From Eledone cirrhosa (taxonomy: Eukaryota), in NCBI GenBank assembly GCA_964016885.1, contig OZ024743.1, forward strand, positions 198,090,001 through 198,154,000: a stretch of 64,000 bases of DNA, written 5' to 3'. The notes under the pieces were generated by a model. It did no database searches, was not told where the DNA came from, and saw only the letters and a list, made by a program, of their open reading frames with translations. How positions within the stretch are numbered: position 1 is the first letter of the stretch; every line of letters begins with the position of its first letter. Below, in pieces: positions 1 to 58,519 of the stretch. The translations under genes and the position numbers were made by a program.

Positions 1-666
1 CTCTTTCTCTCCATATAGATAAATAGATACATTTTGATATATGTACTTCTGCTCTTAACAGTGACTTTTAGTAGAGCTGCTTCAATTTAGATCAAACGCC
101 CTCTACTTCTAGCAGCGTTGGTCCCCCTGTATCCTTATATTGTAACGACCTCACCATGTGCGTTCATAGTTTCTTTTGAATCTATGATGGATGGTCGTTT
201 CTAATGCGTTTATTAAAACTAATTTCTACTAAGGATGCGTTGGTTGATGCACTTCTATGTTTCCTGGCACAGAAAAAGGTGCAACGTGTCTTTCGGCTAG
301 CACAGCAAGGTATATTAACAAATAATAATAATAATTTCTTTGGTATTTGAGAGCACAGATTACGGTACCAGCGAAGTTTGAAAATGGTAACAATGGAAAG
401 TAGGGATTTTGAATAAAGTTTCCCGAACCAAGTATAAGAAGAGAGCAATAAACATACCCTGTCAGAGTTGAAGTCATGTAGTGAGGGAAAGAATAAGTTA
501 GATCAGAAATTTGGGCATGCATCAGCATGTAGAGAGGAGAAAATAGGAAGAGAAAAGTAAGAAAACAGAAAGAGTGAAAACGGAGTAAGCTGAGAGAAAA
601 ATCGAGAGTTTCTGCGCTGGTAAAGAAACAGTTAATCAAAGAAAGAGCCAGTAGCGTTTCAGTAAA

Positions 667-945
667 AATTGTTTCTACTTTTGGCACAAGGCCAGCAATT
701 ATCCCAGTGCATTACTGGTGCTTTATTTTATCGACCCCGTAATGATGAAAGGCAAAAGTTTATCATTACGGTGTCGATAAAATAAAGCACTAGTAATACA
801 CTGTGATAATTGCTGGCCTTGTGCCAAAAGTAGAAACATGTAATAATTGTTTCTACTTTAGGCACAAGGCCAGCAATTACCCAGTGCATTACTGGTACTT
901 TATTTCATCGACCCCGTAAGGATGAAAGGCAAAGTCAACCTCGGT
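667..945. mobile_element. Cluster of three 3' fragments of tRNA-derived SINE family A (minus, plus, minus); the first two form a hairpin
   Basis: Contains aattgtttctacttttggcacaaggccagcaatt...atcgaccccgtaa(t/g)gatgaaaggc. 670-746 and 762-838 are inverted copies. Confidence 0.85.
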
Positions 946-3882: not shown

Positions 3883-3939
<57 letters not shown>

Positions 3940-3945
<6 letters not shown>

Positions 3946-4430
3946 ATTAAATAAATGGAAACTATATTTATAAAACCATATTTATTTCATTATATATATT
4001 TCAGGGATATCATATTAACAATATGCTATGCCTTCCTCAGACAAAATACAATATAAACAGTTTTATAGATAAATAGATTTGACATACCGTAACAACATCG
4101 ACTTGTATTTGAAAAAGTTGGATTGGCAGTGAAAAAATTGTACACTTTTTTCACTGCCAATCCAACTTTTTCAAATACAAGTCGATGTTGTTACGGTATG
4201 TCAAATCTATTTATCTATAAAACTGTTTATATTGTATTTTGTCTGAGGAAGGCATAGCATATTGTTAATATGATATCCCTGAAATATATATAATGAAATA
4301 AATATGGTTTTATAAATATAGTTTCCATTTATTTAATATTGTAAATATACTCCAAATACTTGTCGAGTGCTTTTATATCAGTTATAAATATTTACTAGTT
4401 GTAACCCAACAATTTAAATATAACTTTCCA
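3940..4430 (+). mobile_element. Fold-back insertion (PLE pLTR-like) with ~198-bp inverted arms and a 3' tail, in (TA)n
   Basis: Arms 3940-4137 and 4146-4343 read as exact reverse complements around an 8-nt spacer. The right arm has CTGAGGA (4243-4249) agg..cct GAAA (4281-4284). Confidence 0.75.
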
Positions 4431-4468
4431 TATATATATATATATATATATATATAGGAACCAGTAAG

Positions 4469-4562
4469 ACCCCGACAGCTGAGCTCAAGCCGTTTCGACG
4501 GCTAATTCTGGACTAAATGAAAATTTATCCTGGTATTTAAATAGCCGATCTTCTCAAGGGGT
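4469..4562 (-). ncRNA. Type-I hammerhead ribozyme (U3-A8 core variant) in the 3' pLTR of the Naiad element
   Basis: acccc-TTGAGAA-ga(t)cggcta..long loop..tagccgtc-GAAA-cggct tgagctc agct-GTC^ggggt. Stem I acccc/ggggt, stem III acggct/agctgt, GUC cleavage triplet. Confidence 0.8.
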
Positions 4563-5666
4563 AATTCCATATATGGTCAAAGTGATTGTCAAAAATCAGT
4601 AGTAATTCTGTGGTTGCAAATTAGTAGGGGAGATGGTGGCTAAACCTGCCAGTAGGAGAAAGAGGGGAGGGGGTGGAGTAGACCCAATCAAGCGTTGGTA
4701 GTGCCAGCTACAGCTGGGCATGAGGTCAAAGAAGATACAGGGGAGGGGGAGGGGGAGGAAGTCGGAACGGTAGGTAGAACAATGGGGGGTAGAAATAGGA
4801 AATAAAAAATACTGAGAGTGAAGAAAAGCAAATAAGTGTAAAGAAAAAAGTAAAGTAAATTAAATTCTACGACCTAGGTGTCAGGCTATTGTTAGGCGAG
4901 AATAAAATAAAGAAAGAAAGAAAGAAGTAAATAAATAAATAAATAAATAAATAAGGAAATAAGTAAGAGAACTAGGTGGGACGGATAAGGCAAGGACCCT
5001 TTTAAGAGGTATAAGTACGTAAATGATACGGTGACGGGTCAACAAAAGGGGCCAAAATACTAAAGAGACTACCACGAAATAAACAATAAAGGTTTCCATC
5101 CCGGGCCAGCAACGACCCAGTGCAGCAAAGTGAACTTGTACGAGATAATAATTCTGAGTCCCGAGAAAAATAAATACTAATGCTAACTCTAAAAGATCTA
5201 AAACAAGCTACATGAAAGTTCGTACGAAATAAAGGTAGAATACGGAGAAATAAATTCAGAATCCACCCCGCCCAGAAGAAAAGCGAAGCAAGAAATACTG
5301 AAAGAAATACTGAAACGAAAAAATAAGGCATGTGCCACTAAGAAATATAGAGGGCACAGAGAATAGTGGGAGCGGTCGGAAAAAGGGGGAAAATATCCGG
5401 GGTCTAAGCCAACTGCTATAAAGGGCGGAGTCCGCCAAATCTATCAAAGACTAGGGGAGGGGGGGTGGGGGTACTAAGGCTACATGGGGCCAAAGGGCAG
5501 CCTCGGGTGGGCGAGAAAAGACGCCGACAAAGGAGAGGAGCTGGGGTAGAAGGACAAAGGAGAGAGGGGGGAAGGAAATAAAGGAAGCGATAAAAGAATA
5601 CAAAGAAGATCTTACGTCTTCCTTGGCAAGCAGGGGTTACCCATTGCAAAATCGGCAACTGGGGTG

Positions 5667-7838
5667 TTATAGCCCTAGTCTACCCCCCCCCCCCGGGTCA
5701 TTGTGGGGTTTGAGGGCGAGGTAAGTCCTACGCAATCTATGTTTACATGCAGTAACCAGTTCATCTTTCTTGTTTAGGAGTTGGTCCGTCGAAAACAGCA
5801 TTTGTAAAGTTTCCTCCGAGCATAAATTGCACGGACGGCGTCCTCCCGTGTAAGAATTGGCTCTGGACAGTAATCTCCAAGTGAGATCATAGGTGATGTT
5901 GTTGTCCTTGAGGTCCCATATGTGGCCCGAAAGTGTAGTGGCGTGACGCCGGGCCGGGTTTCGGAAGGTATGTCTATGTTGGTATAGCCGGGTCTTGAAG
6001 TCACATGCGGTAAGTCCTATATAGGCTTTGTTGGAGGTATCCGTCCTCACGTTGCACTGGTAGATCACATTACGGTCTCTGCATCTATTGTCGAGTGGGC
6101 AAATAGATCTATCCGGGCAGTTACACCTCCTGGTCGGTTCTCCACTGCTAATTAGGTTATTTCTGCCATCGGGGTTGAGTTTTTTGTTGTTAGAGGAGAC
6201 GATGTTTTGTGCGAAGTTTGGTGTAGTGCTGTAAGAGAGTTTGATGGTATTTTTGTTAATTATGTTGTGGTAGCGGTGTTGTAATGGGAAGTGTTTTTCA
6301 ATGAGTCTAAAGAATAGTTTCCCGATGGGAGTAGTCACCTCTGCGTTGTGGGGAGGATTAAACCATGTTACATTGCGTGAGCGGCGGTGTCTCCTGCTGG
6401 TTCCGCTAATGGGAGCTGGACAGTAGGATATTCACTCCCGGAAACCACTCCGCTTGAGGGCCTGGTTGTAATAAGGCGCATGTTCATCGAATATCCGCTC
6501 ATTAGCTGACAAACGGGATATGCGGAGGGAGATGTTTTTGACCAGGTTGTTTGTGATGTTCCTAGGATGGTTTGATCGGCGGTGGATGTAGTGCAGATTG
6601 TCATTAGGTTTCCTGTATGGGTAGTACAGGTCGTTTTCGAGGTCGAGGGTTACGTCCAGAAAGTTTACTCGGGTCAGGGACGTTTGTAGGGTTATTTTAA
6701 ATCCCCAGTCGCGGAAGAATCTGATTAATTGTTTCCGGACCCGATCTGTACTACTGGGGTTGTACCCTTTAAGGGTAAGGAGCCCATCATCACGGTACAA
6801 TCCACCACCGAATGCAGGAAACATATCAGTGAGTTTGGCTATTAGGAATAATCCTATAAGATCAGTGACCTCCGCCGAATCTGTGGCGCCCATGCTGACG
6901 TCGAAGGGTGAGTCGGGAGCTCTTTTTATCCATTTAGAGTCGTCAAAGAGTAAGACTGTCTTCCTGGCGTGGAGGATGATTTTTCTTTCCTGGTCGGTGA
7001 TGGGCACGAGTGTTTCGGCGAAGTCCAAGGCGGCAGTAAGTAGCGGTAAGGTGATTGAAGCATAGTAGCTCTCTATGTCGAACTGTATGAATTTAGTTTC
7101 TCGTTTATCCTCCATATTGCTGAACCAGGAGATTACTTCCTGGGTGTTGATCCATAGGCTAAGTCGGGTGTGTTGCTTGACTTTTGGTATCACGCGGTCT
7201 AGGATTTTTTTGCTGATTCTCCCTATGTCGGACTTCGTTGGGTTAATAAGCCTGATGGAGGGTTTACAGTCAAAATCGGATTTATGGTCCTTCAGTGTGA
7301 AGTATGGTGTCCGTGGGTCTAGAGGTTCCGTGCGGTCGGCGACCCCGAGGCTGGAGGTGATTTGTTGTCCATCTCGATTTATGTCCTCGATACAAGAGTG
7401 GTTGGCCTTTTTATAGGTGGAGTTTAGACTGCTCCTGATCAGTGTGTGGTATCTGTCAGGGTTGACAAAGTATAGGTTCCCAGTTTTATCCGAATGCACC
7501 ATGATGTCATTTGTGTTATCATACTCTGTTAAGTTGCTACGGAGTTTTTGTAGGAATCGGTTGTGTCTGGGTTTAAATTTAATGTTCTTGACCAGTTGGA
7601 AGAGGGCATTCTCGAAGGGTGCGAGCAATGGGTTCAGGGGCGGAGATTTGTAGGTAATAAATCCGAATCTCTCCTTGGTGCCGAAGTCTTGGTTGTCGCA
7701 ATATCTGTCATAGAAAAAAGTTCTCCATCTAAGTCTTTTCGCAAATAGATCAATTTTTTGCGTGAGCATCCGAAGGTAAAGTTTTTTCGGTGGGATTGGG
7801 ATGTTCTTGGTAGAGAAGTCAATGTTGTGTTTTCGCAT
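5667..7838 (-). CDS. PLE reverse transcriptase / GIY-YIG endonuclease (~723 codons, one in-frame TGA at 6432-6434)
   Basis: Likely start MRKHNIDFSTKNIPIPP. Motifs: DKT (DKG-like), FDIESYY, MGATDSAEVTDL, YRDDGL, FLDVTLD. Track ORFs 6432..8099 and 5667..6338 are in the same frame, separated only by TGA (..SGFRE*ISYCP..RRSRNVTWFNPP). C-terminal part has CNCPDRSICPLDNRC, VIYQC..AYIGLT, RLYQH, CNLCSEE and LLNKKDELVTACKH, as in Naiad-clade PLEs. Confidence 0.9.
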
Positions 7839-8169
7839 GGTGCGGGTGAAATGAATTGAGCTTAGCAGAAAAGTCTGGATACGGCGTGGTAGGGTCGGAA
7901 AGTGCTCTACTACGGGAGTAGGAGCTAGATAACGAAGGAAATGTGGTAAGGAACCAGGTGGACCATAACGCACCAAAGTACTCAATACTTGAGGTAGTAG
8001 AGTGGGTAATAGGAACCAGTAAGACCCCGACCCCAACGCTTGATTGGGTCTACTCCACCCCCCTCCCCTCTTTCTCCTACTGGCAGGTTTAGCCACCATC
8101 TCCCCTACTAATTTGCAACCACAGAATTACTACTGATTTTTGACAATCACTTTGACCATATATGGAATT

Positions 8170-8263
8170 ACCCCTTGAGAAGATCGGCTATTTAAATACC
8201 AGGATAAATTTTCATTTAGTCCAGAATTAGCCGTCGAAACGGCTTGAGCTCAGCTGTCGGGGT
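8170..8263 (+). ncRNA. Type-I hammerhead ribozyme (U3-A8 variant) in the inverted 5' pLTR
   Basis: Reverse-complement copy of 4469-4562: TTGAGAA 8175-8181, GAAA 8236-8239, GTC 8256-8258. Confidence 0.8.
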
Positions 8264-8354
8264 CTTACTGGTTCCTATTACCCACTCTACTACCTCAAGT
8301 ATTGAGTACTTTGGTGCGTTATGGTCCACCTGGTTCCTTACCACATTTCCTTCG

Positions 8355-8357
<3 letters not shown>

Positions 8358-8425
<68 letters not shown>

Positions 8426-9338
8426 AACACGCACACGTCTATATATATAAACACTCATACATAAATAAACAGATACACACACACACATATACACACATAT
8501 ATACATATAAACACACACACATATACACATAAGCAAACTCACATACATATATACACACACACATATACATATAAACACACACATAATATATATACACACT
8601 CATATACATATATATACACGCACACATATACATTTAAACACACATATACATATATATATACACACATATACATATATATATACACACATATATACATATA
8701 TACACACACTCATATACATATATAAACACACACACATACATATAAACACACACACATATAACATATATATACACACACATATCCATATAAACACTCTCAT
8801 ATACATATATATATATATACACACACATATGCATATAGACACACACTCATATACATATAAACACACACATATATACATATAAACCCACACATATACATAT
8901 ATACACACACACACATACACATATACACACACATATACATATATATATATACACACACACATAAATACACATATACACACATATAACATATATATACACA
9001 CACATATAAATATAAACCCACACACATATACATATACACACACACTCATATACATATATATATACACACACTCATATCCATATATATACACACATACATA
9101 TAAACACACACATACATATATATACACACACTCACATACATATGAACACACACATATATACATATATATATACACACATATATATGTATATACACACTCA
9201 TATACATATATATACACACACATATAACATATATATACACACACACATATACAAATAAACACACACACACATAACATATATACACACACATACATATATA
9301 CACACACTCACATACATATAAACACACATATATACACA
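8358..9338. repeat. Degenerate (TA)/(CA) compound microsatellite, ~1 kb
   Basis: Continuous acacacatatat-type array; source of the many CVYI-rich spurious ORFs. Confidence 0.95.
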
Positions 9339-9399
9339 CCGCCAATTTACTGTGAAACGCATTATTAAAACATTTTTCTTTCCTGTAACATTTATTTTG

Positions 9400-10086
9400 T
9401 CACTCTCTCTAAAAATGCTACCCCTCTCTCATTAAATCTTTATGCATTTCTCACCCTCTCTATATACCACAGCGCGCCTCACTCACTCTCACTAATCCAC
9501 TAAATTCTCTTCCCCTCTCTATATACCACTACCCAACTCTATCGTGGAGGCTCGTGGCCTAGTGGTAAGAGTGTTGGACTCATGATCATAATGTAGTGGG
9601 TTCGATTCCTGGGTTGCGTGTTGTGTTCTTGAGCAAAACACTTCATTTCACGTTGCTCCAGTATACTCAGCTGAAAATGAGTACCTCACAATACTCCCTC
9701 TATCACTAGGGCTATATACTCTCCCTTTTCTCTATAATCCACTACATACCTCACTCTCTCTCACAATTACCCCTCTCCCACAAAACCACAAAATTCTTTC
9801 CCATTCTTAATTCCCACTCTCTCACTAAACCAATAAATTCTCTCCCGCTCTCTATATTCCACAACATACCTCACTCTTTCTCACAGTTCGCCCGCTCTTA
9901 CTAGACGAACAAATTATCTCCCCCTCTATTTCCACTGCATACCTCACTCTCTCTCACAACACCTTCTCACTAAACCAACACTTTCTCTCCCGCTCTCTAT
10001 ATCCCACTACATACCTCACTGTCTCTCACAACCCCCCCTCTCTTACTAGCCCAGACTATTCTCTCTCCCTCTCTATATCACACTAC
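9400..10086. repeat. Degenerate CT-rich minisatellite (~60-70 bp unit) interrupted by a SINE
   Basis: Recurring aaattctctcccnctctctatatnccactacatacctcactctctctcacaa motif. Confidence 0.7.
9546..9685 (+). mobile_element. tRNA-derived SINE family B (CORE-like)
   Basis: A-box tggcctagtgg, B-box ggttcgattcc, then tgtgttcttgagcaaaacactt, which resembles the 5' half of the CORE domain. Confidence 0.8.
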
Positions 10087-18258: not shown

Positions 18259-19177
<919 letters not shown>

Positions 19178-19181
19178 TGTG

Positions 19182-20178
19182 TAATCTGAGATTTTCGAAT
19201 ATTAATAATAATATTCGATTCGTTTGCAATTATGCAAACAGTCTCTTTAAAGCCATGTCAGTAGAATTACCTCGTCATTCCTGCTCTTGTGTTGACATGT
19301 AAACAGAACTGCAGACGCTAATTTTTCTGGTGATTTCCCTTCATCAGTACAGTATGCGAACTTACCTGCCAACTGTCATAGCTAGTGAAAAAATATATTT
19401 TCTAAAATATACAATATACGACTGATCGGCCTGATTTGCATATTAGCAAACTGCCTGATGAGTCTGATCTGCATATTACCAAAACCACTGAACAGCCAGA
19501 TTTGTATATTAGCAGACAGGCCAGTCAGTTTCATGTATATGAGCGATTAATGGCCGGCTTTGCCATATTTAAATAACTAACAGATAACTAATCGCTCTAC
19601 ATGGCTGAATACAATAAATATAATCTGAGGTTTTCGAATATTAATAATTGTTTCTACTTTAGGCACAAGGCCAGCAATTACCCAGTGCATTACTGGTACT
19701 TTATTTTATCGACCCCGTAAGGATGAAAGGCAAAGTCAACCTCGGAGGGATTTGAACTCAGATCGTAAAGGGACGTAACTATGTTGGAAAGCATGGCGTC
19801 CGACCCTCTACCGATACTGGCAATCCACCGCCCTTTCGAATATTAATAATAATATTCGATTCGTTTTCAATTATATAAACAGCCTCTTTAAAGCCATGTC
19901 AGTAGAATGATTCCGTCATCTTTGCTATTGTTTTAGCATGTAAACAGAACTGCAGATTACATTTATTGTATTCAGCCATGTAGAGCAATAAACTATTTGT
20001 TAGTCTTTTGAATATCGCAAATCCGCCCATTAATCGCTCATATACATTAAATTGACTGGCCTATCTGCTGATAAGCAAATCTGGCTGATCAGTGGGTCTG
20101 GTAATATGCAGATCTGACTGATCAGGCTGTCTTCTAATATGCAAATCAGTCTGATCAGTCACTGTATATTTTAGAAAA
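19182..20178 (-). mobile_element. Non-coding HHR element: ~439-nt unit, partial repeat and inverted 5' arm (retrozyme-like family D)
   Basis: 19183-19315 repeats at 19622-19956 (with a SINE inserted). 19953-20178 is the reverse complement of ~19398-19627. Minus-strand HHR at 19308-19353: actgta-CTGATGA-agg..cca-GAAA..GTC^tgcagt. Confidence 0.75.
19649..19833 (-). mobile_element. Full-length SINE family A with a 17-bp target-site duplication
   Basis: TSD tttcgaatattaataat at 19632-19648 and 19834-19850. A-box-like and B-box (gagttcaaatcc) present. Defines the SINE as ~185 bp. Confidence 0.92.
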
Positions 20179-20759
20179 GTCTCAAAACTTCTTGAATGTA
20201 CCTCGTAGATTATACATGCATGTCGCAAAAATATAATTCGGAAGACTTGGATTCAAGTCCTTTCATATTTCAGAAAACACTTAAACAAAATACATTAAAT
20301 GTTACGTATATGTATTGAAAATGTATATGTACACACACAAACACACACACTTAAACTAACACAAACACACAAATACATACATAATGATGATAGCTGCAAT
20401 TCGATTTCGAGTAATGCCATCGCATGATAGTTAAACGGACGTGGCCTTTTAATCCTGCTAGGGACTTGCCTATGGCCAGCAATAACATCGATCGCAACAA
20501 ATGTCACATATCAAGCGATGCCTGTGATTGATGTTTTTTTAATTGAAGAAAGGCTTTGTACAGAGATAACCCCACTCTCTAAACATCGAATGCATTTGCC
20601 CCAAAAGAAGAGAACTGGTCTAAATAATTGGAAGCAAACGAAGTCGTATATTTTATATCAGAGTGACCTTCTTCTAGAGAGATGGCCTAATAAAGACTAG
20701 GACTCTCTCGGTCCACAAAAAAAGTCTTTATATATATATATTATATATATATACTGGTG

Positions 20760-44104: not shown

Positions 44105-45670
44105 ATGATGATGGCTGCCCCCTCGTTATCGAGTATGGCCATTACACGAAAAAAATATATATATATTAATAACAATAATTATAATAATAACAACAATAAT
44201 AATAACGACAACAACAACAATAATAATATACATATATATATATATACACAGACACACGCACATACATAAACATATCTATACACACACACACACACGATAG
44301 CAACTAACAGTGCTGAGATCGAATGTGGCTTTTTAGCCCAGCCAATGATCTAAAATGTCTTGCACAGAGTCAGCAAACAAAACATTCACTGGGAATAGCC
44401 GGCTGTGGTTGGAGTTCATGTACTATTTCATGTCGTTTGAGCCCTCCTGCTGATTTACATTCTCTACCACATGCTTGGCAAGCATGATGAGTATCATCTC
44501 CAACAGCAGCCTGATAGTCAACCACTGCTCTTACTTTATGACTGCGAAGATGACTTTCGAGTCCAGCTTTGCTGAGGCAGAGTCTCAACCACTCCAAGTC
44601 GTTTACCATACACATAGATATATGATTCACTGTACTTCTTACCAGGGGCAGGTTGTTACATGACGACGGTTTTCTTGAGACTGACAGTCAATCCTAGGGC
44701 AGTGCAAGCGTCAGAAAATGTATTCAAAATGTGCTGCATATAACTCTCTGTGTGCGCTACAAGATCGCACTCATCTGCATACAAGAGGTCTCTTATGATT
44801 GATGTAAATACTTTTATTTTGCAGCAAAGCGTCTGATGTTAAATATGCTGCCTGAGGTTCGATATCGGATGTAAACACCATGCTCGCAATTCCTGAATGC
44901 AATACAGAAAACCATTGCAAAGTATATGGCAAACAGGGTCGGTGCTGGAATATCCCCCTGTTTCACTCCATTTTTTACTGAGATAGGCTCCGACATGTTA
45001 CCTCCGACATTAACCCAAGCCTTCATGTCGTCATGGAAAGACCTAACTAAAGCAAGGAACTTATCAGGATAACGAAGTTTCTGGAGAACCTTCCATAATG
45101 CATTTCTGTTAACAGTATCGAAAGCTTTTGTCAGATCGACAAAAACCTGATACAGATCCAAACCTTGTTCCATGCACTTCTCCTGGAGCTGTCTAGCTGA
45201 GAAGATCATATCAGTAGTGCCGCGTCCAGCTCGAAAACTAGATTGACTTTCAGGAAGAACACAATTTGCAATGTGTGTCAGCAGACGGTCCAGAAGCACC
45301 CTACATAAAACTTTCCCTACGACAGAAAGCAATGGTATACCTCTGTAATTCCCACAATCATTCCTGTTACCCTTTCCCTTGTACAAGACCACCATTACTG
45401 CATCTCTCCAGTCCTCAGGTACGGATTCATTAGCCCATATCCTGCCAAACAAAGAGGGAAGACGTTGCAGGATTCTCTCACCACCATATTGTAGGAGCTC
45501 AGCATGTATGCCATCTATACCTGGAGACCTTCCACTGTTCAGCTTCGAGATAGACACTGCAACCTCCACAAGCGTCGGAGGTTCTGCGAGAGCTACTTTC
45601 ACAGGACTTTCTGGAATGAGATTGAGGAAATCTTCATTGACGACAGACGGCTGATTCAAAAGATCATCAA
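44105..45670 (-). mobile_element. RTE-clade (BovB-like) LINE, 5'-truncated and internally deleted
   Basis: ORF 44814-45683 has RSPGIDGIHAE, YKGKGNRNDCGNYRGI, LPESQ, FVDLTKAFD, GVKQG. It continues as DLLYADE after a stop. C2H2 fingers (CQACGRECKSAGGLKRHEIVH) at 44370-44630. RTE-like 3' tail atggccatactcgataacgagg..ccatcatc at 44107-44143. Confidence 0.88.
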
Positions 45671-45702
45671 TACATACATGCATACATACCTACGTACATA
45701 CA

Positions 45703-48700
45703 GACAGTCAACGCGATCAGTCGCATATTTTGGCGCGGGAGACTATTTATTAAATTTAAGATGAATACTATCTCCGACAGTAATGCCACAACTACAGTCA
45801 GTTGAACAACTGGTTATTCTTCTAACTATCCCTTTTATTCGAATTCGTAGAGATATCCGACTAAATACATAATTCATTTTACAAGGATTTGCTACAAACA
45901 GCATGGCTGAACACAACATCAACAACAAAATTAAGGAAGTACCGAAGACAAATAACAAGGAAGGTAATCAAACTTTATTCAGTTGTAGCTACAGAAGAAA
46001 TCGAAATTATAAATCGCATTTCTCTTGGAGTTGCGAACTTAATAATGATTTATTTAATTGTTATAAAATGGCAAAACACAATCCCTCCATTGGCTATATG
46101 AATAGAATGAAGCTACACTGGGACGAAATGCACTCAGAGATAAGTTATTTCACAGCGAAACAATTACGCCAACAAGCGACGTTTGTTGAACGTAAAAATA
46201 AGATAAATATTATTAATTGTAAGCCCCCCACAACAAACATGTTATCAACAACACGTGCTACAGGTCGCCATGCTACTAGACTTCCTAGCAGCCAGGTCGA
46301 ACAGCGTCTTGAAACAACTATGCCTATAAGAAACTTGACACCACCTGTACCATCTAAGTCTACCTCGATAATAATAATAATCGAAGAAATTTGACACGAC
46401 GTGAACCATCCGAGTCTACCTCGACTGTTGTGGAAAATTCTATCGATAATGATAATAATCAAAAGTATAAACAACTGAAAATTTCCCTCAACAAAATCTT
46501 CCAGAGAGAAATTAACTCATGTATAAATATCTCTCTTGCTGAACGTGTTAAAACGACAATGTTGAATAAAAAACCAAATATTAAGTGTTATTGACGAAAT
46601 AGCGGATGAATATTTACGACGGATAAAAACCCCAACATTTTGGCAAATCAACGCCTGTTTATATGCCTTAGCAACGTCAGTGAAGCATTATCTTGGTGAT
46701 ATTAACAAGCACAAAACACCACCAAAAACCATCATATATAACTAAAATAGAAAAAAAAGATTGCTGACCTACGAAAAAACATAGGATATGTGACAATGCT
46801 CCTTACATGCAAACAAACACAAAAAACCTCACTCCACACCAACAAAGAGTGAAAAATAAAATAGAGACGATGTTTGGTAACAGTAGAACCAGAACTCTCC
46901 AATATAAGCTGATCACCCTCAAACAAGGATTGAGAGCTGTTAGCGAAAAACGCCGTTACCTGAAGAAGGTAGATGAGAGAAAAGTGCTTCATAAAAGATT
47001 CAGACGAAACCAAACATCAGTCTATAGAGATATGAGGGGCAAAATAATAAGTGTCACTGAGGTCCCATCCCAGAAAGACATAGATTCCTTTTGGAGCAAA
47101 ATATGAGGTGAAAAGAAGAATTTCAACCAAGATGCAGTGTGGCTAAGAGAAATCCGAAAGAACTATTGCTCCTACACTACAACAAAAACATACGAAATAA
47201 GTGAGGGTACCCTTGAGACTGTGATAGGAAAACTCCAAGATAAGAAAACACCAGGAAGAGACATGATTGTCGGCTACTGGTTAAAAAAACTCATATTCTA
47301 TCGGAGGTATCTTACTGACCTCTACCAACAAGTTCTTAAGGGAGATACACTTATATCAGAATGGTTGACATTAGCACAAACATTACTGGTCCCCAAGAAC
47401 AAAGACACCCACTTGGCAAAAAAATACCGACCATTGCATACCAGAACCTGATGTAAAAGATGTATACAGCCTGCCTGAACCTATTACTCCAAGATCACTG
47501 TGAAAATAATAACATCATCACAGATGAACAAGCAGTTAGAAAGAAAGGGGTTTGAGGATGTGCTGAACAACTCCTAATCAACAAAACTGCGATATTGGAG
47601 GTGCGGCAACTTAGGAGGAATATGACTACAGTCTGGCTGGACTACAGGAAAGCTTTCGATTCTGTTTCCCACTCTTGGATGATAGAGGCCCTCCAACTTG
47701 CTAAAGTCCCAGACATTATTGTCAGAGCCATAGAGAGGCTGTCTTCTTCTTGGGCTACTATCCTAAGGTTAAAGACAGAGAGGGAGGACGCTATTTTCAC
47801 TGATAAAATACAATATTGCAGGGGTATATTTCAGAGGGACAGTCTCTCTGTGATATTATTCATCTTGTCATTAAACCCCTTGTCTTTTCTGCTCAAGAAA
47901 TATGAGGGATACATCATTGGCTCACAGAAGGACAGAAATATGAACCTAACCCATAATTTCTTTGTGGACGATCTGAAACTCTATGCCAAGAACATGGATG
48001 GGATGAAAAAAAATCTTGACCTTGTTACAACGTTCTCAAAGGATATAGGAATGGAGTTTGGCCAAGAATAATGCTCATACATGACTGTAAAGCGGGGAAA
48101 AACAAACAACTCAATCTAGCAACATTGTTATCAATGGCCTAACTGTTTCACCGATATCTGATGAGGACTGTTACAGATACCTGGGGATAGATGAGAACAT
48201 ATCCTATAATGGTATCTGTAATAAAGAACGCGTAACCAGGGAATACTACACCCGATTAAGAAAGATCTGGTTATCGGAACTCTCTGCGCAAAACAAAACA
48301 GTGGTTCACAATGTGTTTGCTGTGCCTGTCCTAACACCAATATTTGGAATACTCAATTGGGCGATAGACGAAATCCGAGCAGTTGATGTTGGAACTCGAA
48401 AAATACTAAACAACACCGGAAACTTCCACATCAACAGTGACATAGACCGCCTTTACTTAACATGTAAGCAGGGAGGCAGAAGCCTAACATCAGCCCAGAC
48501 AACATTTGAAAGTCGCATCATATCTCTCCGACAACATCTACGAACCTCAAAGCGTAGGAGCCCGTTTCTCGAGCAAGTCTATCTGCATGAAACAGATAAG
48601 ATCATGAGAGTTGGGAAGGAACTCCTCGAGAGATATTCCCTGTGTGATAATCAAAAACTCACACCCAGGGATGTCGCTCAGCAGTATCGAAATGAATCCA

Positions 48701-49730
48701 TGGTTGAAAAACTGCATGCCTATCAGCAAAAAATTAGGCATGGATATGTTGCCAGGAAGCTCCAGAGTGAGAGTAATATAGATAAGGAAAGTAGTCTATC
48801 TTGGACCAACAACCGATATATTGGCTCCCACTTTGAAGGATACGCTTTTGCAATCCAGGAACAGGAGATTTGCACGAAATACCTGATTCACAAAAGAGAT
48901 AGGGATGCAGGCAAAACACCTAGATGTGATAACAAGTGCAGACTCTGCAGAACTAACACCGAGGATATCACCCATCTCATCAGCAGCTGTCCATGAGGCA
49001 TGATGTAGTGGCTAAAACCCTGTACAATGCGGTTCGTAAAAAACATAGCCCCGATAATAAACACATTAAAAGCTACAGCAATGTGGAAGACATCCATGTA
49101 CATAATATGAAAGAGTACTGGTGGAATGTTCCAGTAAAAACCCCAATAAAATGCAGGCATAACAGACCAGATATTATGTTATGGGACAGGGAGAAGAAAG
49201 CATGCACAGTAGTGGAAATTAGCTGCTCAGTAGATGCCAATATGATATCAAAGATTAGTGAAAAGGAGAACATTTATGAAGAACTGATAATAAATCTGCA
49301 GATACACCACCCTCATTACACCTTCAGATTTATGCCTGTGATTATTGGGGCACTGGGGTATGTTAGTAACTGCCTCAATACAAATATTGAGAAGCTAGGC
49401 TTCACAAGAACAGAAAGAACACAACTAGTTAGGAAATTACAAGTACAATCCATTAATGGAACAGTAAAAATATGTAAAACATTCCAAAAACTTTGCATCT
49501 AATAACTGAATATACACATATACAGATGCAAAACCTATACACATCCACACATACAACTCAAAACATACACATCCACACATACAATAACATCCATATCTAC
49601 ACATGCATGCATACATACATATTTACCTAGTTGATGTTGTGTAAATTCCAATGAGAGAGTCTTGTGTCCATGTTAGAAACCGACTCTCTCTCTATTGGTA
49701 AAACTTTGTGAAATTATAAAACCAGAAGAA
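45703..49730 (+). mobile_element. R4/Dong-clade non-LTR retrotransposon (RT plus REL endonuclease), full length, multiply disrupted
   Basis: N-terminal GYMNRMKLHWDE..KQLRQQ. RT motifs WLDYRKAFDSV, GIFQRDSLS, FFVDDLKLYA. CCHC CRLCRTNTEDITHLISSCP, RHDVVAK, REL motif RPDIMLWD..VVEISC. 3' UTR hairpin at 49648-49698. Confidence 0.92.
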
Positions 49731-55079: not shown

Positions 55080-58000
55080 TGCCCTCTCCCAGTTTTACCT
55101 CCTTTAATTTACAGACACATACTCAGAGTAGGCCCATTCACTCGGGCCATACTTGCTTCTCTCACCCAAACAAAATGCTGGGAAGAGAGCACTTCCCTCT
55201 TTACCCTGATCTTCCTTTTCAAATGAAAATTGAAAAGGTTAATCAGGGCATCACCGAAGAGGTAACTGCTCGTCTTCAGCCCTTTCAAACGTGTCCACCA
55301 TACTATCTCTTCCGACATGGCCACCAGACAGATAAAAACTGCCTGCCCTTCCCGGCTAAAGGAAGAGGGCGGGGCAATCCTCACGATGGACTCAGCTGAT
55401 AACTAGATCCGTCCTAAACGTGACAGCAGGTGTTCGACATAAACCCACAAGTCAGCAATGCTCGGACACTGGACGAGTGCGTGCAGGGCGGTTTCGTCGC
55501 CCTGCGCGCATCTCGCACCTGCCCGGCTGACGGCAGCTCCATGCCTGTAGAGTTTATCCCGAACTGGCAAAGCTCCCCGGTAGCACTGCCAGGCCAGGGA
55601 TTTCTGGAAGTTGTCCATAGGCCCTGGCCCGAAAGCCCTTCCGAAGAGATTGGCTAGTTGATTTTCGTCGACACCTAGAGTTTCTCCAAGTACGTCGTCG
55701 CTCTTCCCCTCCACTAATCCTCTATAGAACGCCAAGGTGGAGTTTCCACCGATCACATTGCCCGATTGGTCGAGGGCTGTGAGCGCCTGAAGACATTCCA
55801 GTCTCCAAGCGCTCCTTCTCGGTCTTCGCTTGACCCAGGACTGCAGCTCCGTCAAGGAGACGAGCTGGGGAAAGACGTGTCTAGCAAACGGCGACCACAC
55901 CTGATCACCGTCGAGGAAGAGGTGGAGATGTCGTAGGCTGAGCGCGTGTCTGCGCATCATCAGGCATGGCATGCCCAGCCCTCCACGTAGCGGGTGTTGA
56001 CAGCAGATGGACCTCCTGACCTTAGGAGCGCGTCCCTTCCACAAAAAGCGAAAGAGCAAACGCTCCAGCGCAGTCAGGCGGGGCTTAGGACAAGGTACGA
56101 CGGTCGGGCGGTAGTAGATGACGGACGCGATGTACGCGTTAGCCACCTCCGCTCGACCTTTCAGGGATAGCTTCCTCTCCGCCCATTTCTGGGTGAGAGA
56201 GGCCACCCTGCTCGTCACCTCGTCCCAGTTTTTGTCCGTCTGGAGGTCCGGACCGAAACAGAGCCCTAGCAATTTAACCGGTCCGTCCGTCCAGCGCCCA
56301 ACGACGCTATTGGATGGCATGGACCTGCCTCTCCAGGTGCCGAGCTGCAGGCCCACTGACTCTTACTGGTTGATCATTGCTCCTGTCACCGCTTCGTATT
56401 CTCTTAGTGTAGTGATGATCGCCTCGATGTGTTTGGCGTTCGACACCACTACGGTGACATCATCCGCATATGCTGACAGGGATCTTCCGCATCCTAGTTC
56501 GCGCGGGACCCCCCTGAACGTCTCCAGTTTGTGCAGTAATGGCTCGAGAGTCAATACGTACAAGAGGGACGAGAGGGGACATCCTTGGAGGACCGAGCGC
56601 ATGATGTTGAACGGTTCCGAAAGGTGACCGTTCACTCTCACCACAGAGCAGATGTCGCTGTGCATGGCAGCGATCCAGCCTCTGAAGACGGGCCCAAAGC
56701 CAGCCGCCCTCAGGACTGCCGCTAGGTAACGATGGTCGACCCTATCGATGGCTTTCGGCTGATCTAAATTGATCAAAGACCCACCCGTGCCAGGTTCCCT
56801 AGCTACCCTCTCTACGATGTATCGCATGAGGTGGAGGTTGTCGTGGATGGATCTGTCGGGAATGGCGCATGCCTGCGCCTCTCCCACCAGACCACCAACG
56901 ACAAGCGCCAACTTCTTTGCTAGCACCTTGGCCAAATCTTGAACTCTGTGTTTAGCAGAGTTATGGGCCTAAAATTATCTATGTTATCCCCCTTGGTCGG
57001 ATCCTTTCTCAGCAGCGCCACCGCTCCTCGGCTCACAGAGGTGGGAATTCTCCCGTTCTGTTGCTAGTTGCAGTAGACGTCCGCCAAGAGGCCTCCGAAC
57101 AAGTGTGGCATTTGTACGTAAAGTTCATAGGGAAGACCATCCAAACCAGGCGATTTACCCCTTGTGCAGCCAGTCATTGCCTCCCGTATTTCAGCGGCTG
57201 TTATCGGCTTTTCGCAACACTCCGCCTCAGTGGCCGAGAGCCGCGGCAGTCCGTCGAAGTAGACACTAAAGTCCATCCCTCGATCCGGCCCGCCGCTGCC
57301 CCCGAACAGTTGAGCGAAGTGTCGCTGAAAAGCTTCACACATTTGCTCGGGATCGAGTAGCATGCGCCCGTCGTGGTCCACCAAAGACCGGATCGTGGCT
57401 TTGTTGCCACGACGCGCCTCCGCCACTCGGGCCCATTGAACGGCTTTCGTCCTCTCGTGTCTGAGAGCACGCACCCTAGCTCTGACAACGCAGCCTTCGT
57501 GCTTTGCATTGAAGAATTGGTCAAGGTCAAATTTCGCCGCAAGTGCGTCACTCGCGATGCCTTTGCAAAGCGCCTCGTCTAAATTTCTAACTAATTCTCC
57601 CTCTGCTCTATTTTTCTCTATTGCTAAAGCCTTACTAAACCTAATGGACTCTATTCTAATTGCTCTTTTCAGAGCAAACCACCACTTGTTGTTGCCGATG
57701 GCCCCCGTCAACGCCCGCTTAACTAGTTCGCTAATCCGATCTTTGTAGGCCTTGCGCGCTGGTAAGGACGCGTTTAGCTTCCAGTAGCCGGGTCCTTGTC
57801 TCTGAAGCCTATCTACGTCAAGCACACAGATCACGAATTTGTGGTCCGTGTAGCTGACTATCTTGAATTGTGGACAGCCTATGCTAGACCTATATATTTC
57901 CTTACAAAATACTCTATCTAGATATGATCTGGATGACCCTATGCGATTTGTCCAAGTCCACATTGGTACATTCGGGAAATCCAATCGGTACCTGTCAGAC

Positions 58001-58519
58001 AGTTCAAAACGCCTGAGCAGGTTGTGAGACTCTTGCACCCTGCTCCCCTATCCACTAATACCACACAATCCCAGCGTGCATCTAAGATCCCGTTCCAGTC
58101 GCCCACTAACACTAAAGAGCGGGACGTTCCAAGAAAGGTCTCCAGACTCCGGAAGAAATCAGGCCGCCCTGCTCCTGTCGGGGCATAGACGGCCCCTAAC
58201 CTGAAAGCTTGCCCGTCTCCACTGGTCACATCCAGCACCACCAACTTACCTTCTGGGTCCAGGAAGATGGCCCGTATGGCAAGATCCAAACCTCTCCGAA
58301 AAAGCACAGCAACTCCTTCTCCGATCCCGGACGGCTGGGAGATGCGTACACATCGTAGCCGCCGAAGATCGGTGAGAAGGCCCGTGCATCGGAGATTCTG
58401 GTCTCGCTGATGGCCACTACATCTATGTTTAGTGACCTGAGGTCGTTGAGCAGGTGACCCTGCTTCCATGACGACCCCAAGCCACGCGCATTTTTACTGC
58501 CTATTCTGAGTGAGGTCAT
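55080..58519 (-). pseudogene. Tx1 ORF2 (APE endonuclease, RT, CCHC), frameshifted
   Basis: NARGL, AISETR, VYAPT, VGDWN, SYLDR, TDHK, GPGYWKLN, KSPGLDGLPYELY, LDQPKAIDRVDH, QGCPLS, AYADD, GGLGMP, RCAQGDETALHALVQCP. Confidence 0.9.

What the first reader, a model, noticed from the sequence alone, without database searches (positions are those of the whole stretch)
19182..20178. Non-coding miniature of the Naiad architecture: ~439-nt unit starting at the HHR cleavage site
On the minus strand it reads: inverted arm (20178-19953), sense sequence resuming at tc^tgcagt (the predicted GUC^ site), one complete ~439-nt unit once the SINE and its TSD are removed, then an HHR (19353-19308) and ~130 nt of the next unit. 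This is the same junction rule as the Naiad element but with no ORF. It is a second, independent case and a strong candidate for a PLE-mobilised retrozyme.
Basis: partly seen in the sequence, partly recalled or inferred. Interest (0 to 1): 0.76.

Follow-up and report, generated by a model that had tools for sequence, protein, structure and literature searches.

The report
Hammerhead-bearing non-coding Penelope-type repeat
This is an old, decayed copy of a 439-base non-coding repeat that carries a hammerhead-ribozyme motif and occurs thousands of times in this genome. It is likely copied into TA microsatellites by Penelope-like retrotransposons, so it is a new member of an already described kind, and its start at the predicted ribozyme cut site is not a rule of the family.

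Summary
The architecture is there as described: an inverted arm, one 439-nt unit split by a SINE with a 17-nt duplication, a hammerhead (HHR) motif, about 132 nt of the next unit, then (AT)n.

In 77 independent genomic copies (thousands of candidates), insertions are 3'-anchored and abut (TA)n in 53 of 77. They are 5'-truncated at variable points and run 0.5 to about 2.1 units head-to-tail. 23 of 77 carry an inverted 5' arm. This is the published insertion signature of Penelope-like elements (PLEs). Resident PLEs with a C-terminal endonuclease show the same 3' layout: HHR, 115-185 nt, then (TA)n.

The family HHR has the full catalytic core, a long helix I with compensatory changes, and an A·A mismatch at the base of helix II. 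It falls far below Rfam thresholds, and the window copy is decayed.

Not supported:
- The cleavage-site junction rule: 2 of 77 copies, against 1.75 expected by chance.
- Tandem arrays: none of 3 or more units. In the least biased sample, 26 of 26 copies have a single HHR.
- The "Naiad" label: the window's PLE reads RT then endonuclease.

No ORF and no RNA data were found. Verdict: a non-autonomous, likely PLE-mobilised, retrozyme-like family, and a new member of a known kind.

The parts
19948..20178 (+). Inverted 5' arm. It is a copy of unit positions about 122/126-355 in the opposite orientation to the main copy. Its junction-proximal end overlaps the sense copy by a 4-nt microhomology (tctg).
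   Evidence: It is 8.0% diverged from the family majority and shares only 3 non-majority bases with the sense copy, against 14+14 private ones.
19834..19954 (-). Upstream sense unit, positions 1-121. It starts at the predicted HHR cleavage position. Its last 17 nt (19850-19834) form the upstream copy of the SINE target-site duplication.
19649..19833 (-). Secondary insertion of a SINE with a tRNA-like head. It has a 17-nt target-site duplication (19850-19834 and 19648-19632).
   Evidence: The same site is occupied by SINEs in at least 15 of 77 family copies, with differing 5' junctions.
19314..19648 (-). Upstream sense unit, positions 105-439. It contains three 33-nt internal repeats and ends with the HHR.
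19293..19371 (-). Hammerhead type-I motif with extended helix I. The core is 19353-19308 and the predicted cut lies between 19314 and 19313. It is decayed in this copy.
   Evidence: Near-majority copies fold at -31.6 kcal/mol (z -4.25), and this copy at z -0.2.
19182..19313 (-). 3' partial unit (positions 1 to about 132-139). This is the family's usual 3' end.
19094..19181 (.). (AT)n microsatellite abutting the 3' end. This is the family's preferred target.

Best explanation
The locus is one old, decayed insertion of a 439-nt non-coding repeat family that carries a type-I hammerhead motif, and the family is likely mobilised in trans by resident Penelope-like elements (PLEs) through target-primed reverse transcription at (TA)n microsatellites.

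Shown:
- Family membership and the lack of any ORF.
- 3'-anchored, 5'-truncated copies that run head-to-tail for 0.5 to about 2.1 units.
- Flanking (TA)n.
- Inverted 5' arms whose outer ends fall in the same zone as the normal 3' ends.
- Resident PLEs with the same layout: HHR, then 115-185 nt, then (TA)n.

Inferred:
- Nicked (TA)n DNA would prime cDNA on AU-rich stretches of the RNA (unit positions about 128-144, 158-180 and, more rarely, about 345-370).
- The template would be longer than one unit, either a multimer or an HHR-processed circle copied more than once round.
- A second priming from the other strand would give the inverted arm, and the two cDNAs would be joined by microhomology.

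In the window copy this joint happens to fall at the predicted HHR cut site. That is chance, not a rule. I put the circular-RNA (true retrozyme) step at about 0.35-0.4, and it is untested.
For: Family size and spread:
- First-look candidates numbered 3873, 4860 and 3070, with 40 scored each time. Copies lie on more than 20 contigs. 77 independent loci were analysed.

PLE-type insertion signature:
- (TA)>=5 lies at the 3' end in 53 of 77 loci, against 230 of 3080 (7.5%) control windows taken from the same loci's flanks.
- 3' ends fall at unit 128-144 in 35 of 56 loci and at 158-180 in 17 of 56.
- Lengths are continuous: sample C has a median of 0.70 unit, and the overall maximum is about 2.1 units.
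- 23 of 77 loci have an adjacent inverted arm. In 14 of those 23 the arm's outer end lies at unit 125-195, against 3.7 expected (P=1.6e-6).
- These are the features Craig et al. 2021 list for PLE insertions, including (TA)n bias (passages read).

Resident PLEs:
- There are 10595 GIY-YIG candidates. All 150 that were scored are over the Pfam cut-off.
- 8 of 8 long-ORF loci have the endonuclease at the C-terminus.
- 3 of those 8 carry a minimal HHR 384-408 nt behind the stop, and 2 of those 3 end 115-185 nt later in (TA)n.
- The window's own PLE sits between (TA)n tracts and has 100% identical 220-nt inverted arms.

Hammerhead motif:
- The majority sequence reads actgta-CTGATGA-A-GGGTAATCACCC-A-GAAAC-ATTAGT-GTC^TGCAGT.
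- 56 of 97 copies keep the core.
- 94.4% of cells are paired, and 13 cells changed on both sides, against 4.8 in shuffles (0 of 500 shuffles reach this). One helix I pair shows U-A changed to G-C four times and to A-U twice.
- An HHR with a U·U mismatch at the base of helix II and a short helix III self-cleaves in axolotl retrozymes (PMC7229834, passages).

Same-template origin of the units in one insertion:
- The copy's own downstream unit is the best match in 8 of 27 copies, against about 0.9 expected, and ranks 4th or better in 15 of 27.

RNA structure:
- The unit RNA is highly structured, with z -5.6.
Against: - No RNA evidence of any kind was obtained.
- Self-cleavage is untested. The HHR scores only 15.5 bits against Rfam HH9, whose gathering score is 52 (E=0.25 in a 201-nt search). 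It has an A·A mismatch where G-C is usual.
- No sequence similarity was found between the unit and any of the 30+8 sampled PLE loci or the window's PLE. The one exception is a neighbouring, oppositely oriented family copy in L041/L061. The partner therefore remains unidentified.
- No arrays of 3 or more units were found, and most copies hold one HHR, so few loci could yield unit-length RNA by double cleavage.
- Autonomous PLEs form partial tandems without being circles, so the tandems do not require a circular template.
- 4 of 27 insertions have two units less alike than average (rank 19 or worse).
- All samples are the top 40 scorers of each search and are not random. The covariation counts can be inflated by shared descent.
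Confidence: 0.7

Rival explanations
1. The element is a true non-LTR retrozyme. Dimeric loci would be transcribed, and both HHRs would cut to give a 439-nt RNA. A host ligase would circularise it, and a PLE RT would copy the circle more than once round. The window copy's start at the cut site would then record a cleaved linear template.
For: - The 3' ends lie at three alternative AU-rich internal zones, as expected for a template without a fixed 3' end.
- Copies reach about 2.1 units although multi-unit sources are rare.
- The units within one insertion tend to be each other's closest relatives.
- A helix I of about 19 bp would hold the two ends together.
- The unit RNA is strongly structured.
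- The model is published for animal retrozymes (PMC7229834, passage).
Against: - Only 2 of 77 5' ends lie at the cut site, which equals the chance expectation.
- 27 of 77 copies read through an upstream cut site.
- There are no arrays of 3 or more units.
- 26 of 26 least-biased copies have a single HHR.
- No RNA data exist.
- Tandems also arise with ORF-bearing PLEs.
Confidence: 0.37
2. The unit is an internally deleted derivative, or a solo terminal repeat (pLTR), of an autonomous PLE family that I did not sample. The 439-nt unit would then simply be that PLE's end.
For: - The 2026 preprint 10.64898/2026.07.22.740005 (abstract and section 14 read) finds that Xenopus retrozymes are related to PLE pLTRs.
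- Only 38 of more than 10000 candidate PLE loci were inspected here.
Against: - None of the 27 copies with two HHR sites has extra sequence or an ORF between them, apart from SINE insertions.
- Long copies continue 5' into another unit and never into coding sequence.
- There were no blastn matches to the 38 PLE loci or to the window's PLE.
Confidence: 0.15
3. The family is a LINE-dependent, SINE-like retroposon. The inverted arms would come from LINE-type twin priming, and the HHR would be incidental.
For: - 5' truncation and 5' inversions also occur with LINE-1 (recalled knowledge, no call).
- LINE-type RT ORFs are abundant in the window.
Against: - Head-to-tail copies longer than one unit, (TA)n targeting, and an HHR about 140-180 nt from the 3' end are all shared with resident PLEs and are not features of LINEs.
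- There is no poly(A) tail or LINE-like tail.
Confidence: 0.07
4. The HHR resemblance is fortuitous or long dead. The family would be a plain PLE-mobilised non-coding repeat with no ribozyme activity at any time.
For: - The Rfam score is far below threshold.
- There is an A·A mismatch at the base of helix II.
- The minimum-free-energy fold pairs CUGAUG with CAUUAG instead of forming the catalytic fold.
Against: - All invariant core bases sit in the right order and spacing with three helices.
- The two subfamilies differ in loop 2 but keep the stems and the core.
- There are compensatory changes in helix I.
- HHRs lie at the same relative place in resident PLEs.
Confidence: 0.2

Closest known systems
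Animal non-LTR retrozymes (Cervera & de la Pena 2020, PMC7229834; Li, Clavereau & Pollet 2026 preprint, 10.64898/2026.07.22.740005)
   Same: - Non-coding unit of 150-450 bp with low GC (36-38%).
- One type-I HHR per unit, with a short helix III capped by a tetraloop and a mismatch at the base of helix II, as in axolotl HHR_Amex2.
- Head-to-tail copies.
- Highly structured RNA.
- Co-existence with HHR-bearing PLEs, which are the proposed mobilisers.
   Different: - No arrays were found: the maximum is about 2.1 units and most copies are shorter than one unit with a single HHR.
- Helix I is unusually long (about 19 bp).
- Expression and circularity are untested.
- The evidence for PLE mobilisation here is the insertion signature ((TA)n target, inverted arms), not co-occurrence or pLTR homology.
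Penelope-like elements with C-terminal GIY-YIG endonuclease and HHR-bearing pseudo-LTRs (Cervera & de la Pena 2014, cited but not read; Craig et al. 2021, PMC8557442, passages read)
   Same: - 5' truncation, partial tandems and an inverted 5'-truncated copy.
- Microsatellite (TA)n bias.
- An HHR about 115-190 nt from the 3' end.
   Different: - No RT/EN ORF, and only 439 nt long.
- The HHR has a 3-bp helix III with a UUAG loop and a long helix I. The resident PLEs sampled have a minimal HHR with a 1-bp helix III and a palindromic GUAC loop.
- No alignable sequence is shared.
Naiad PLEs (Craig et al. 2021)
   Same: (TA)n target preference and tandem/inverted insertion structures.
   Different: - Naiads have an N-terminal endonuclease and lack canonical HHRs.
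- The window's PLE reads RT, then linker, then GIY..YIG.
- Nothing ties this family to a Naiad rather than to a Neptune-like or other C-terminal-EN PLE.
tRNA-bearing Penelope-type tandem repeats noted earlier in this scan (e1-7810660, e1-7881736; unchecked AI notes on other genomes)
   Same: A short non-coding unit copied into TA microsatellites with PLE-type ends.
   Different: Those units carry a tRNA module and no ribozyme. This one carries an HHR.

Membership tests
Animal non-LTR retrozymes | Type-I hammerhead with the conserved catalytic core in each unit | tested here: met
   The family majority has CUGAUGA, GAAA, GUC^ and helices I-III. 56 of 97 copies keep the core. It is below Rfam thresholds, and catalytic activity was not tested.
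Animal non-LTR retrozymes | [quoted passage not shown] | tested here: inconclusive
   The 439-nt monomer is in range. Partial dimers exist: 27 of 77 loci span two cut sites, but those samples were biased towards long copies. No copy reaches 3 units, and 26 of 26 least-biased copies have one HHR.
Animal non-LTR retrozymes | Non-autonomous: no coding capacity, no LTR/PBS/PPT | tested here: met
   The longest stop-free stretch in the majority is 87 aa, against 70+-16 in shuffles. Near-majority copies reach 43-66 aa. The 177-aa antisense stretch of L063 has no Pfam match at E<=0.1 (best E=0.17).
Animal non-LTR retrozymes | Expressed as linear and circular monomeric RNA | not testable with these tools
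   No RNA run is listed. The three runs laid are DNA-like contigs.
Animal non-LTR retrozymes | Low GC and co-existence with HHR-bearing PLEs | tested here: met
   GC is 0.36-0.38. PLEs are abundant and carry a minimal HHR.
PLE-type insertion (Craig et al. 2021) | Frequent 5' truncation with a common 3' end | tested here: met
PLE-type insertion (Craig et al. 2021) | Partial head-to-tail tandems (pseudo-LTR) | tested here: met
   Copies run continuously through the unit boundary for up to about 2.1 units.
PLE-type insertion (Craig et al. 2021) | Inverted 5'-truncated copy adjacent to the 5' end | tested here: met
   23 of 77 loci. In 14 of those 23 the outer end lies at the canonical 3'-end zone.
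PLE-type insertion (Craig et al. 2021) | Insertion bias for (TA)n microsatellites | tested here: met
   53 of 77 loci, against 7.5% of control windows.
PLE (autonomous) | RT plus GIY-YIG endonuclease ORF | tested here: not met
   No ORF was found in any of the 77 copies.
Rfam hammerhead families (Hammerhead_1, HH9 and others) | Score at or above the curated gathering threshold | tested here: not met
   The window gives no match at all. The near-majority copy L002 scores 15.5 bits against HH9, whose threshold is 52.
   The translation of 5667-8126(-) reads RT motifs, then a Cys-rich linker, then NVIYQC..AYIGLT (the motifs were recognised by eye). There is a weak tblastn match to C-terminal-EN PLE ORFs (23-30% identity, E 1e-4 to 8e-4). 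Pfam gives no hit.

The most novel reading that the evidence does not exclude
The family is a small natural reporter of how PLEs integrate. Both nicked strands of a (TA)n target would prime cDNA on AU-rich stretches of a circular or multimeric hammerhead RNA. The two cDNAs would meet and be joined by microhomology, often at a hairpin at unit positions 34-52. This would be the first insertion-signature proof, as opposed to co-occurrence, that retrozyme-like hammerhead RNAs are mobilised by PLE machinery.
Probability: 0.3. Interest if true: 0.55.

Novelty: new member of a known kind. Interest (0 to 1): 0.33.

Why it matters
Animal retrozymes have been linked to PLEs by co-occurrence and by homology to PLE terminal repeats. 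This family adds a different kind of evidence. Its insertions carry the PLE footprint: (TA)n targets, 3' anchoring, partial tandems, and inverted arms with canonical outer ends. Resident PLEs share the same layout of HHR, tail, then (TA)n.

The family also gives a compact 439-nt substrate with mapped preferred 3' ends and a 5'-end and inversion hot spot. That could serve in an in vitro or cell assay of PLE integration, which Craig et al. 2021 name as the missing tool.

For genome annotation, it shows that the striking coincidence in this window, a unit starting at the cut site, should not be generalised.

Tried and rejected
- RNA evidence. The look-up of sequencing runs listed no RNA holder. 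The three runs it gave, all from one sample and one study, are DNA-like contigs. When laid, they show only that the family is very abundant and give no molecule ends.
- Rfam. Nothing at gathering thresholds in the window. No hammerhead at E<=10 in 18900-20500. Only a sub-threshold HH9 match on L002.
- Partner by sequence. blastn of the unit against 30 GIY-YIG loci, 8 long-ORF PLE loci and the window found no shared sequence. The L041/L061 hit is a neighbouring family copy on the opposite strand, 1.2 kb beyond a PLE stop codon.
- Trimer pattern search in the genome. Arrays of 3 or more units are therefore excluded only among the top-scoring matches.
- SINE as an inherited part of the unit. Rejected: the 5' junctions and the SINE subfamilies differ between loci, so these are independent hits on a hot spot.
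- Inverted arm as an independent second insertion in the window. Unlikely, because its outer end (unit about 355) has no (TA)n beside it. I cannot exclude it.
- Antisense ORF. Stop-free stretches of 86-177 aa occur in 13 of 77 loci, mostly in one subfamily. They are not kept in near-majority copies and have no Pfam family.
- TSS reading of the pile-up at unit 41-50 (TCATTC resembles an initiator; the consensus is recalled). It cannot be separated from an RT stop at the hairpin AGAATGA-CGGGG-TCATTCT.
- Earlier notes of this scan. None for this genome or this sequence.
- Supplements of the bioRxiv preprint are closed, and those of PMC7229834 and PMC8557442 were not opened. They may list mollusc retrozyme or PLE families that bear on novelty.

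Full report
**Observation.**
The parts, in order, are:
- An inverted arm at 20178-19948. It is the reverse complement of 19420-19632, at 213-230 nt and 86% identity.
- A sense copy that starts at 19954, directly behind 'tc'.
- A SINE at 19833-19649, flanked by a 17-nt duplication.
- The rest of the unit, down to 19314.
- A hammerhead-like motif at 19353-19308, with the predicted cut between 19314 and 19313.
- About 132 nt of the next unit, down to about 19182.
- (AT)n at 19181-19094.

With the SINE and one duplication removed, the period is exactly 439. The arm and the sense copy overlap by the 4-nt microhomology tctg, so the joint is placed only to within 4 nt.

The hammerhead in this copy is damaged. 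Rfam gives no match in the whole window at gathering thresholds, and none of the 15 matches at E<=10 in 18900-20500 is a hammerhead. My strict descriptor missed the motif, and its region folds no better than shuffles (z -0.2).

**The family.**
The unit has no other copy in the window. It is highly repeated in the 3.0-Gb genome. Three searches gave 3873, 4860 and 3070 first-look candidates, of which 40 were scored each time.

I analysed 77 independent loci after dropping 13 duplicate places. They fall into three samples:
- Sample A: 30 loci from a 467-nt query.
- Sample B: 21 new loci from a 711-nt (1.6-unit) query.
- Sample C: 26 new loci from a 199-nt query covering only the HHR and the 3' part. 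This sample is the least biased with respect to length.

All three are top scorers, not random draws. The sample A copies are 3-8% diverged from the majority. The window copy's four segments are 4.5-8.3% diverged, and the arm and sense copy share only 3 non-majority bases against 14+14 private ones. This fits one old event copied from a near-majority template.

**Anatomy of the insertions.**
- 3' anchoring. Of the 56 loci with a (TA)n run at the end, 35 end at unit 128-144 and 17 at unit 158-180.
- Target. (TA)>=5 abuts the 3' end in 53 of 77 loci, against 230 of 3080 (7.5%) control windows from the same loci's flanks.
- Variable 5' ends. Sample C has a median length of 0.70 unit (0.51-1.19). 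Sample A runs 1.05-1.74 units and sample B 1.41-1.96. L075 reaches about 2.1 units.
- Head-to-tail continuity. Copies run head-to-tail through the HHR. 27 of 77 span two predicted cut sites, and none of these is in sample C.
- No arrays. No locus shows 3 or more units.
- Inverted arms. 23 of 77 loci have an adjacent inverted arm. In 14 of those 23 the arm's outer end lies at unit 125-195, the same zone as normal 3' ends, against 3.7 expected (P=1.6e-6). 7 of the 23 have (TA)n beyond the arm. In 4 of the 23, including the window copy, the outer end lies at unit 340-425, another AT-rich stretch.
- Units within one insertion. They tend to be each other's closest relatives. The copy's own downstream unit is the best match in 8 of 27 and ranks 4th or better in 15 of 27, though 4 of 27 rank 19th or worse.

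**The junction rule fails.**
5' ends within +-5 nt of the predicted cut site occur in the window copy and in L017 only. That is 2 of 77 against 1.75 expected (P=0.53). Arm junctions are scattered. Four arms end 4-33 nt beyond the cut site, inside the HHR, and none ends at the site.

There is instead a pile-up of 5' ends at unit 41-50. It holds 7 of the 25 main alignments that start within unit 1-139 of the upstream pass (P=0.0015). About 11 of those 25 start at unit 102-112 directly behind a SINE and are not true 5' ends. The pile-up lies in the 3' arm of a small hairpin, AGAATGA-CGGGG-TCATTCT, which is also the pivot of some snap-back arms. This could be an RT stop or switch point, or a transcription start (TCATTC resembles an initiator; the consensus is recalled). 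I cannot tell which.

**The hammerhead.**
The family majority reads actgta-CUGAUGA-A-GGGUAAUCACCC-A-GAAAC-AUUAGU-GUC^UGCAGU. Its features are:
- All invariant core bases are present.
- Helix II has 3 bp, closed by an A·A mismatch.
- Helix III has 3 bp with a UUAG loop.
- Helix I has 6 bp and continues, after a small internal loop, to about 19 bp (-31.6 kcal/mol, z -4.25).

56 of 97 copies keep CTGATGA..GAAA..GTH^TGCAG. The two subfamilies differ in loop 2 and in the outer part of helix I through changes between A-U and G·U, but they keep the stems and the core.

On 96 aligned copies, 94.4% of cells are paired. 13 cells changed on both sides, against 4.8 in shuffles (0 of 500 shuffles reach this), and one helix I pair shows U-A changed to G-C four times and to A-U twice. 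The tool warns that shared descent can inflate such counts.

Rfam sees only 15.5 bits for HH9 on a near-majority copy, where the threshold is 52. A retrozyme HHR with a U·U mismatch at the base of helix II and a 2-bp helix III is active in axolotl, weakly as a monomer and better as a dimer (PMC7229834, passages).

**Who moves it.**
The genome holds 10595 GIY-YIG candidates, and all 150 scored are over the Pfam cut-off. In 8 of 8 long-ORF loci the endonuclease is C-terminal. Three of these (L095, L096, L099) carry a minimal HHR with a GUAC-looped helix III, 384-408 nt behind the stop. Two of those three end 115-185 nt later in (TA)n. A further canonical HHR element (L098, L099) ends about 150 nt behind its cut site in (TA)n, in 2 of 2 loci.

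The layout of HHR, about 115-190 nt, then (TA)n is therefore shared by the repeat and by resident PLE-type elements.

Craig et al. 2021 (passages) list the following as PLE hallmarks: 5' truncation, partial tandems, an adjacent inverted 5'-truncated copy, and (TA)n bias. They name the bias for Naiads and, via the Cys-rich endonuclease linker, for Neptune.

No sequence is shared between the unit and any sampled PLE, so the partner is not identified.

**Mechanism (inferred).**
A PLE endonuclease would nick a (TA)n target. The freed 3' end would anneal to an AU-rich stretch of the RNA and prime cDNA. Synthesis would run back through the HHR and, in a minority of events, on into a second pass, which needs a template longer than one unit. 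Priming from the opposite strand would give the inverted arm, and the two products would be joined by microhomology.

I cannot decide whether the long template is a multimeric transcript or an HHR-processed, ligated circle, as in the published retrozyme model (PMC7229834).

For a circle:
- The alternative internal 3' ends.
- The long clamp-like helix I.
- The highly structured unit RNA (z -5.6).

Against needing one:
- ORF-bearing PLEs make the same tandems.

**Comparison and novelty.**
The kind is in print. Animal non-LTR retrozymes were proposed to be PLE-mobilised (PMC7229834). A 2026 preprint ties vertebrate retrozymes to PLE terminal repeats (10.64898/2026.07.22.740005; abstract and section 14 read).

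Two literature searches listed no paper describing such a family in molluscs other than the mussel. I did not open supplements.

This is a new member of a known kind. It is unusual in lacking arrays, in its long helix I, and in offering insertion-signature evidence.

The window's PLE lies at 4454-8361 on the minus strand, between (TA)n tracts, and has 100% identical 220-nt inverted arms. It translates as RT motifs, an in-frame stop, a Cys-rich linker, and then NVIYQC..AYIGLT (recognised by eye). It matches C-terminal-EN PLE ORFs weakly, and its 3' UTR has no CUGANGA. It is therefore not of Naiad domain order.

Noticed in passing
window 19632-19850; loci L007, L008, L010, L012, L014, L019, L030, L064, L071, L075, L078, L087, L114, L122: Unit positions 105-123 (ATTATTATTAATATTCGAAA) are a SINE insertion hot spot. 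At least 15 of 77 family copies carry a SINE there. All share the same 3' junction (SINE tail ..GTAGAAACAA|TTATTAAT). There are at least 3 clearly different 5' junctions and two SINE subfamilies, so these were independent events. Usually only one of a copy's two passes is hit.
   Followed up: partly
One in-frame stop separates the RT from the linker. It sits between (TA)n tracts and has 100% identical 220-nt inverted arms (4454-4673 / 8059-8278), so it looks very young. Its 3' UTR has no CUGANGA.
   Followed up: partly
window 3934-4349: This is a 416-nt near-perfect palindrome (208-nt arms, 99%) lying beside (TA)n. Each arm holds an AT-rich hammerhead-like string (CTGAGGA..GAAA) that my descriptor picked up at 4243-4292(+) and 4040-3991(-). 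It is probably a separate snap-back insertion.
   Followed up: no
L098:~100-800 (minus) and L099:~8800-9500 (plus): This is another element with a textbook type-I hammerhead (CTGATGA-GTCCCAC..GTGTGGAC-GAAAC..GTC). It ends about 150 nt behind the cut site in long (TA)n tracts. It may be a second retrozyme-like family or the end of another PLE.
   Followed up: no
family unit positions 34-52 (window 19921-19903 and 19280-19262): The hairpin AGAATGA-CGGGG-TCATTCT coincides with a pile-up of 5' ends (unit 41-50, at least 7 loci) and acts as the pivot of some inverted arms (L025). It could be an RT stop or switch site, or a transcription start.
   Followed up: partly
L063:1732-2262 (minus) and 12 other loci: There is an antisense stop-free frame of 86-177 aa, mostly in one subfamily, running through the HHR and the three 33-nt repeats (11-aa period DxPDLHISRLA). 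It has no Pfam match at E<=0.1 (best E=0.17) and is not kept in near-majority copies.
   Followed up: partly
L088 / L089 (two places 1446 bp apart on one contig): Two family copies with identical structure (unit 394 to 188) and equal identity to the majority lie 1.4 kb apart. This looks like a local duplication of a block that contains the element.
   Followed up: no
window 44814-45689(-), 47556-48996(+), 55403-58493(-), 61942-64000(+): There are several LINE-type reverse-transcriptase ORFs (RVT_1, zf-RVT, an AP-endonuclease fragment). The window also contains 200 N.
   Followed up: no
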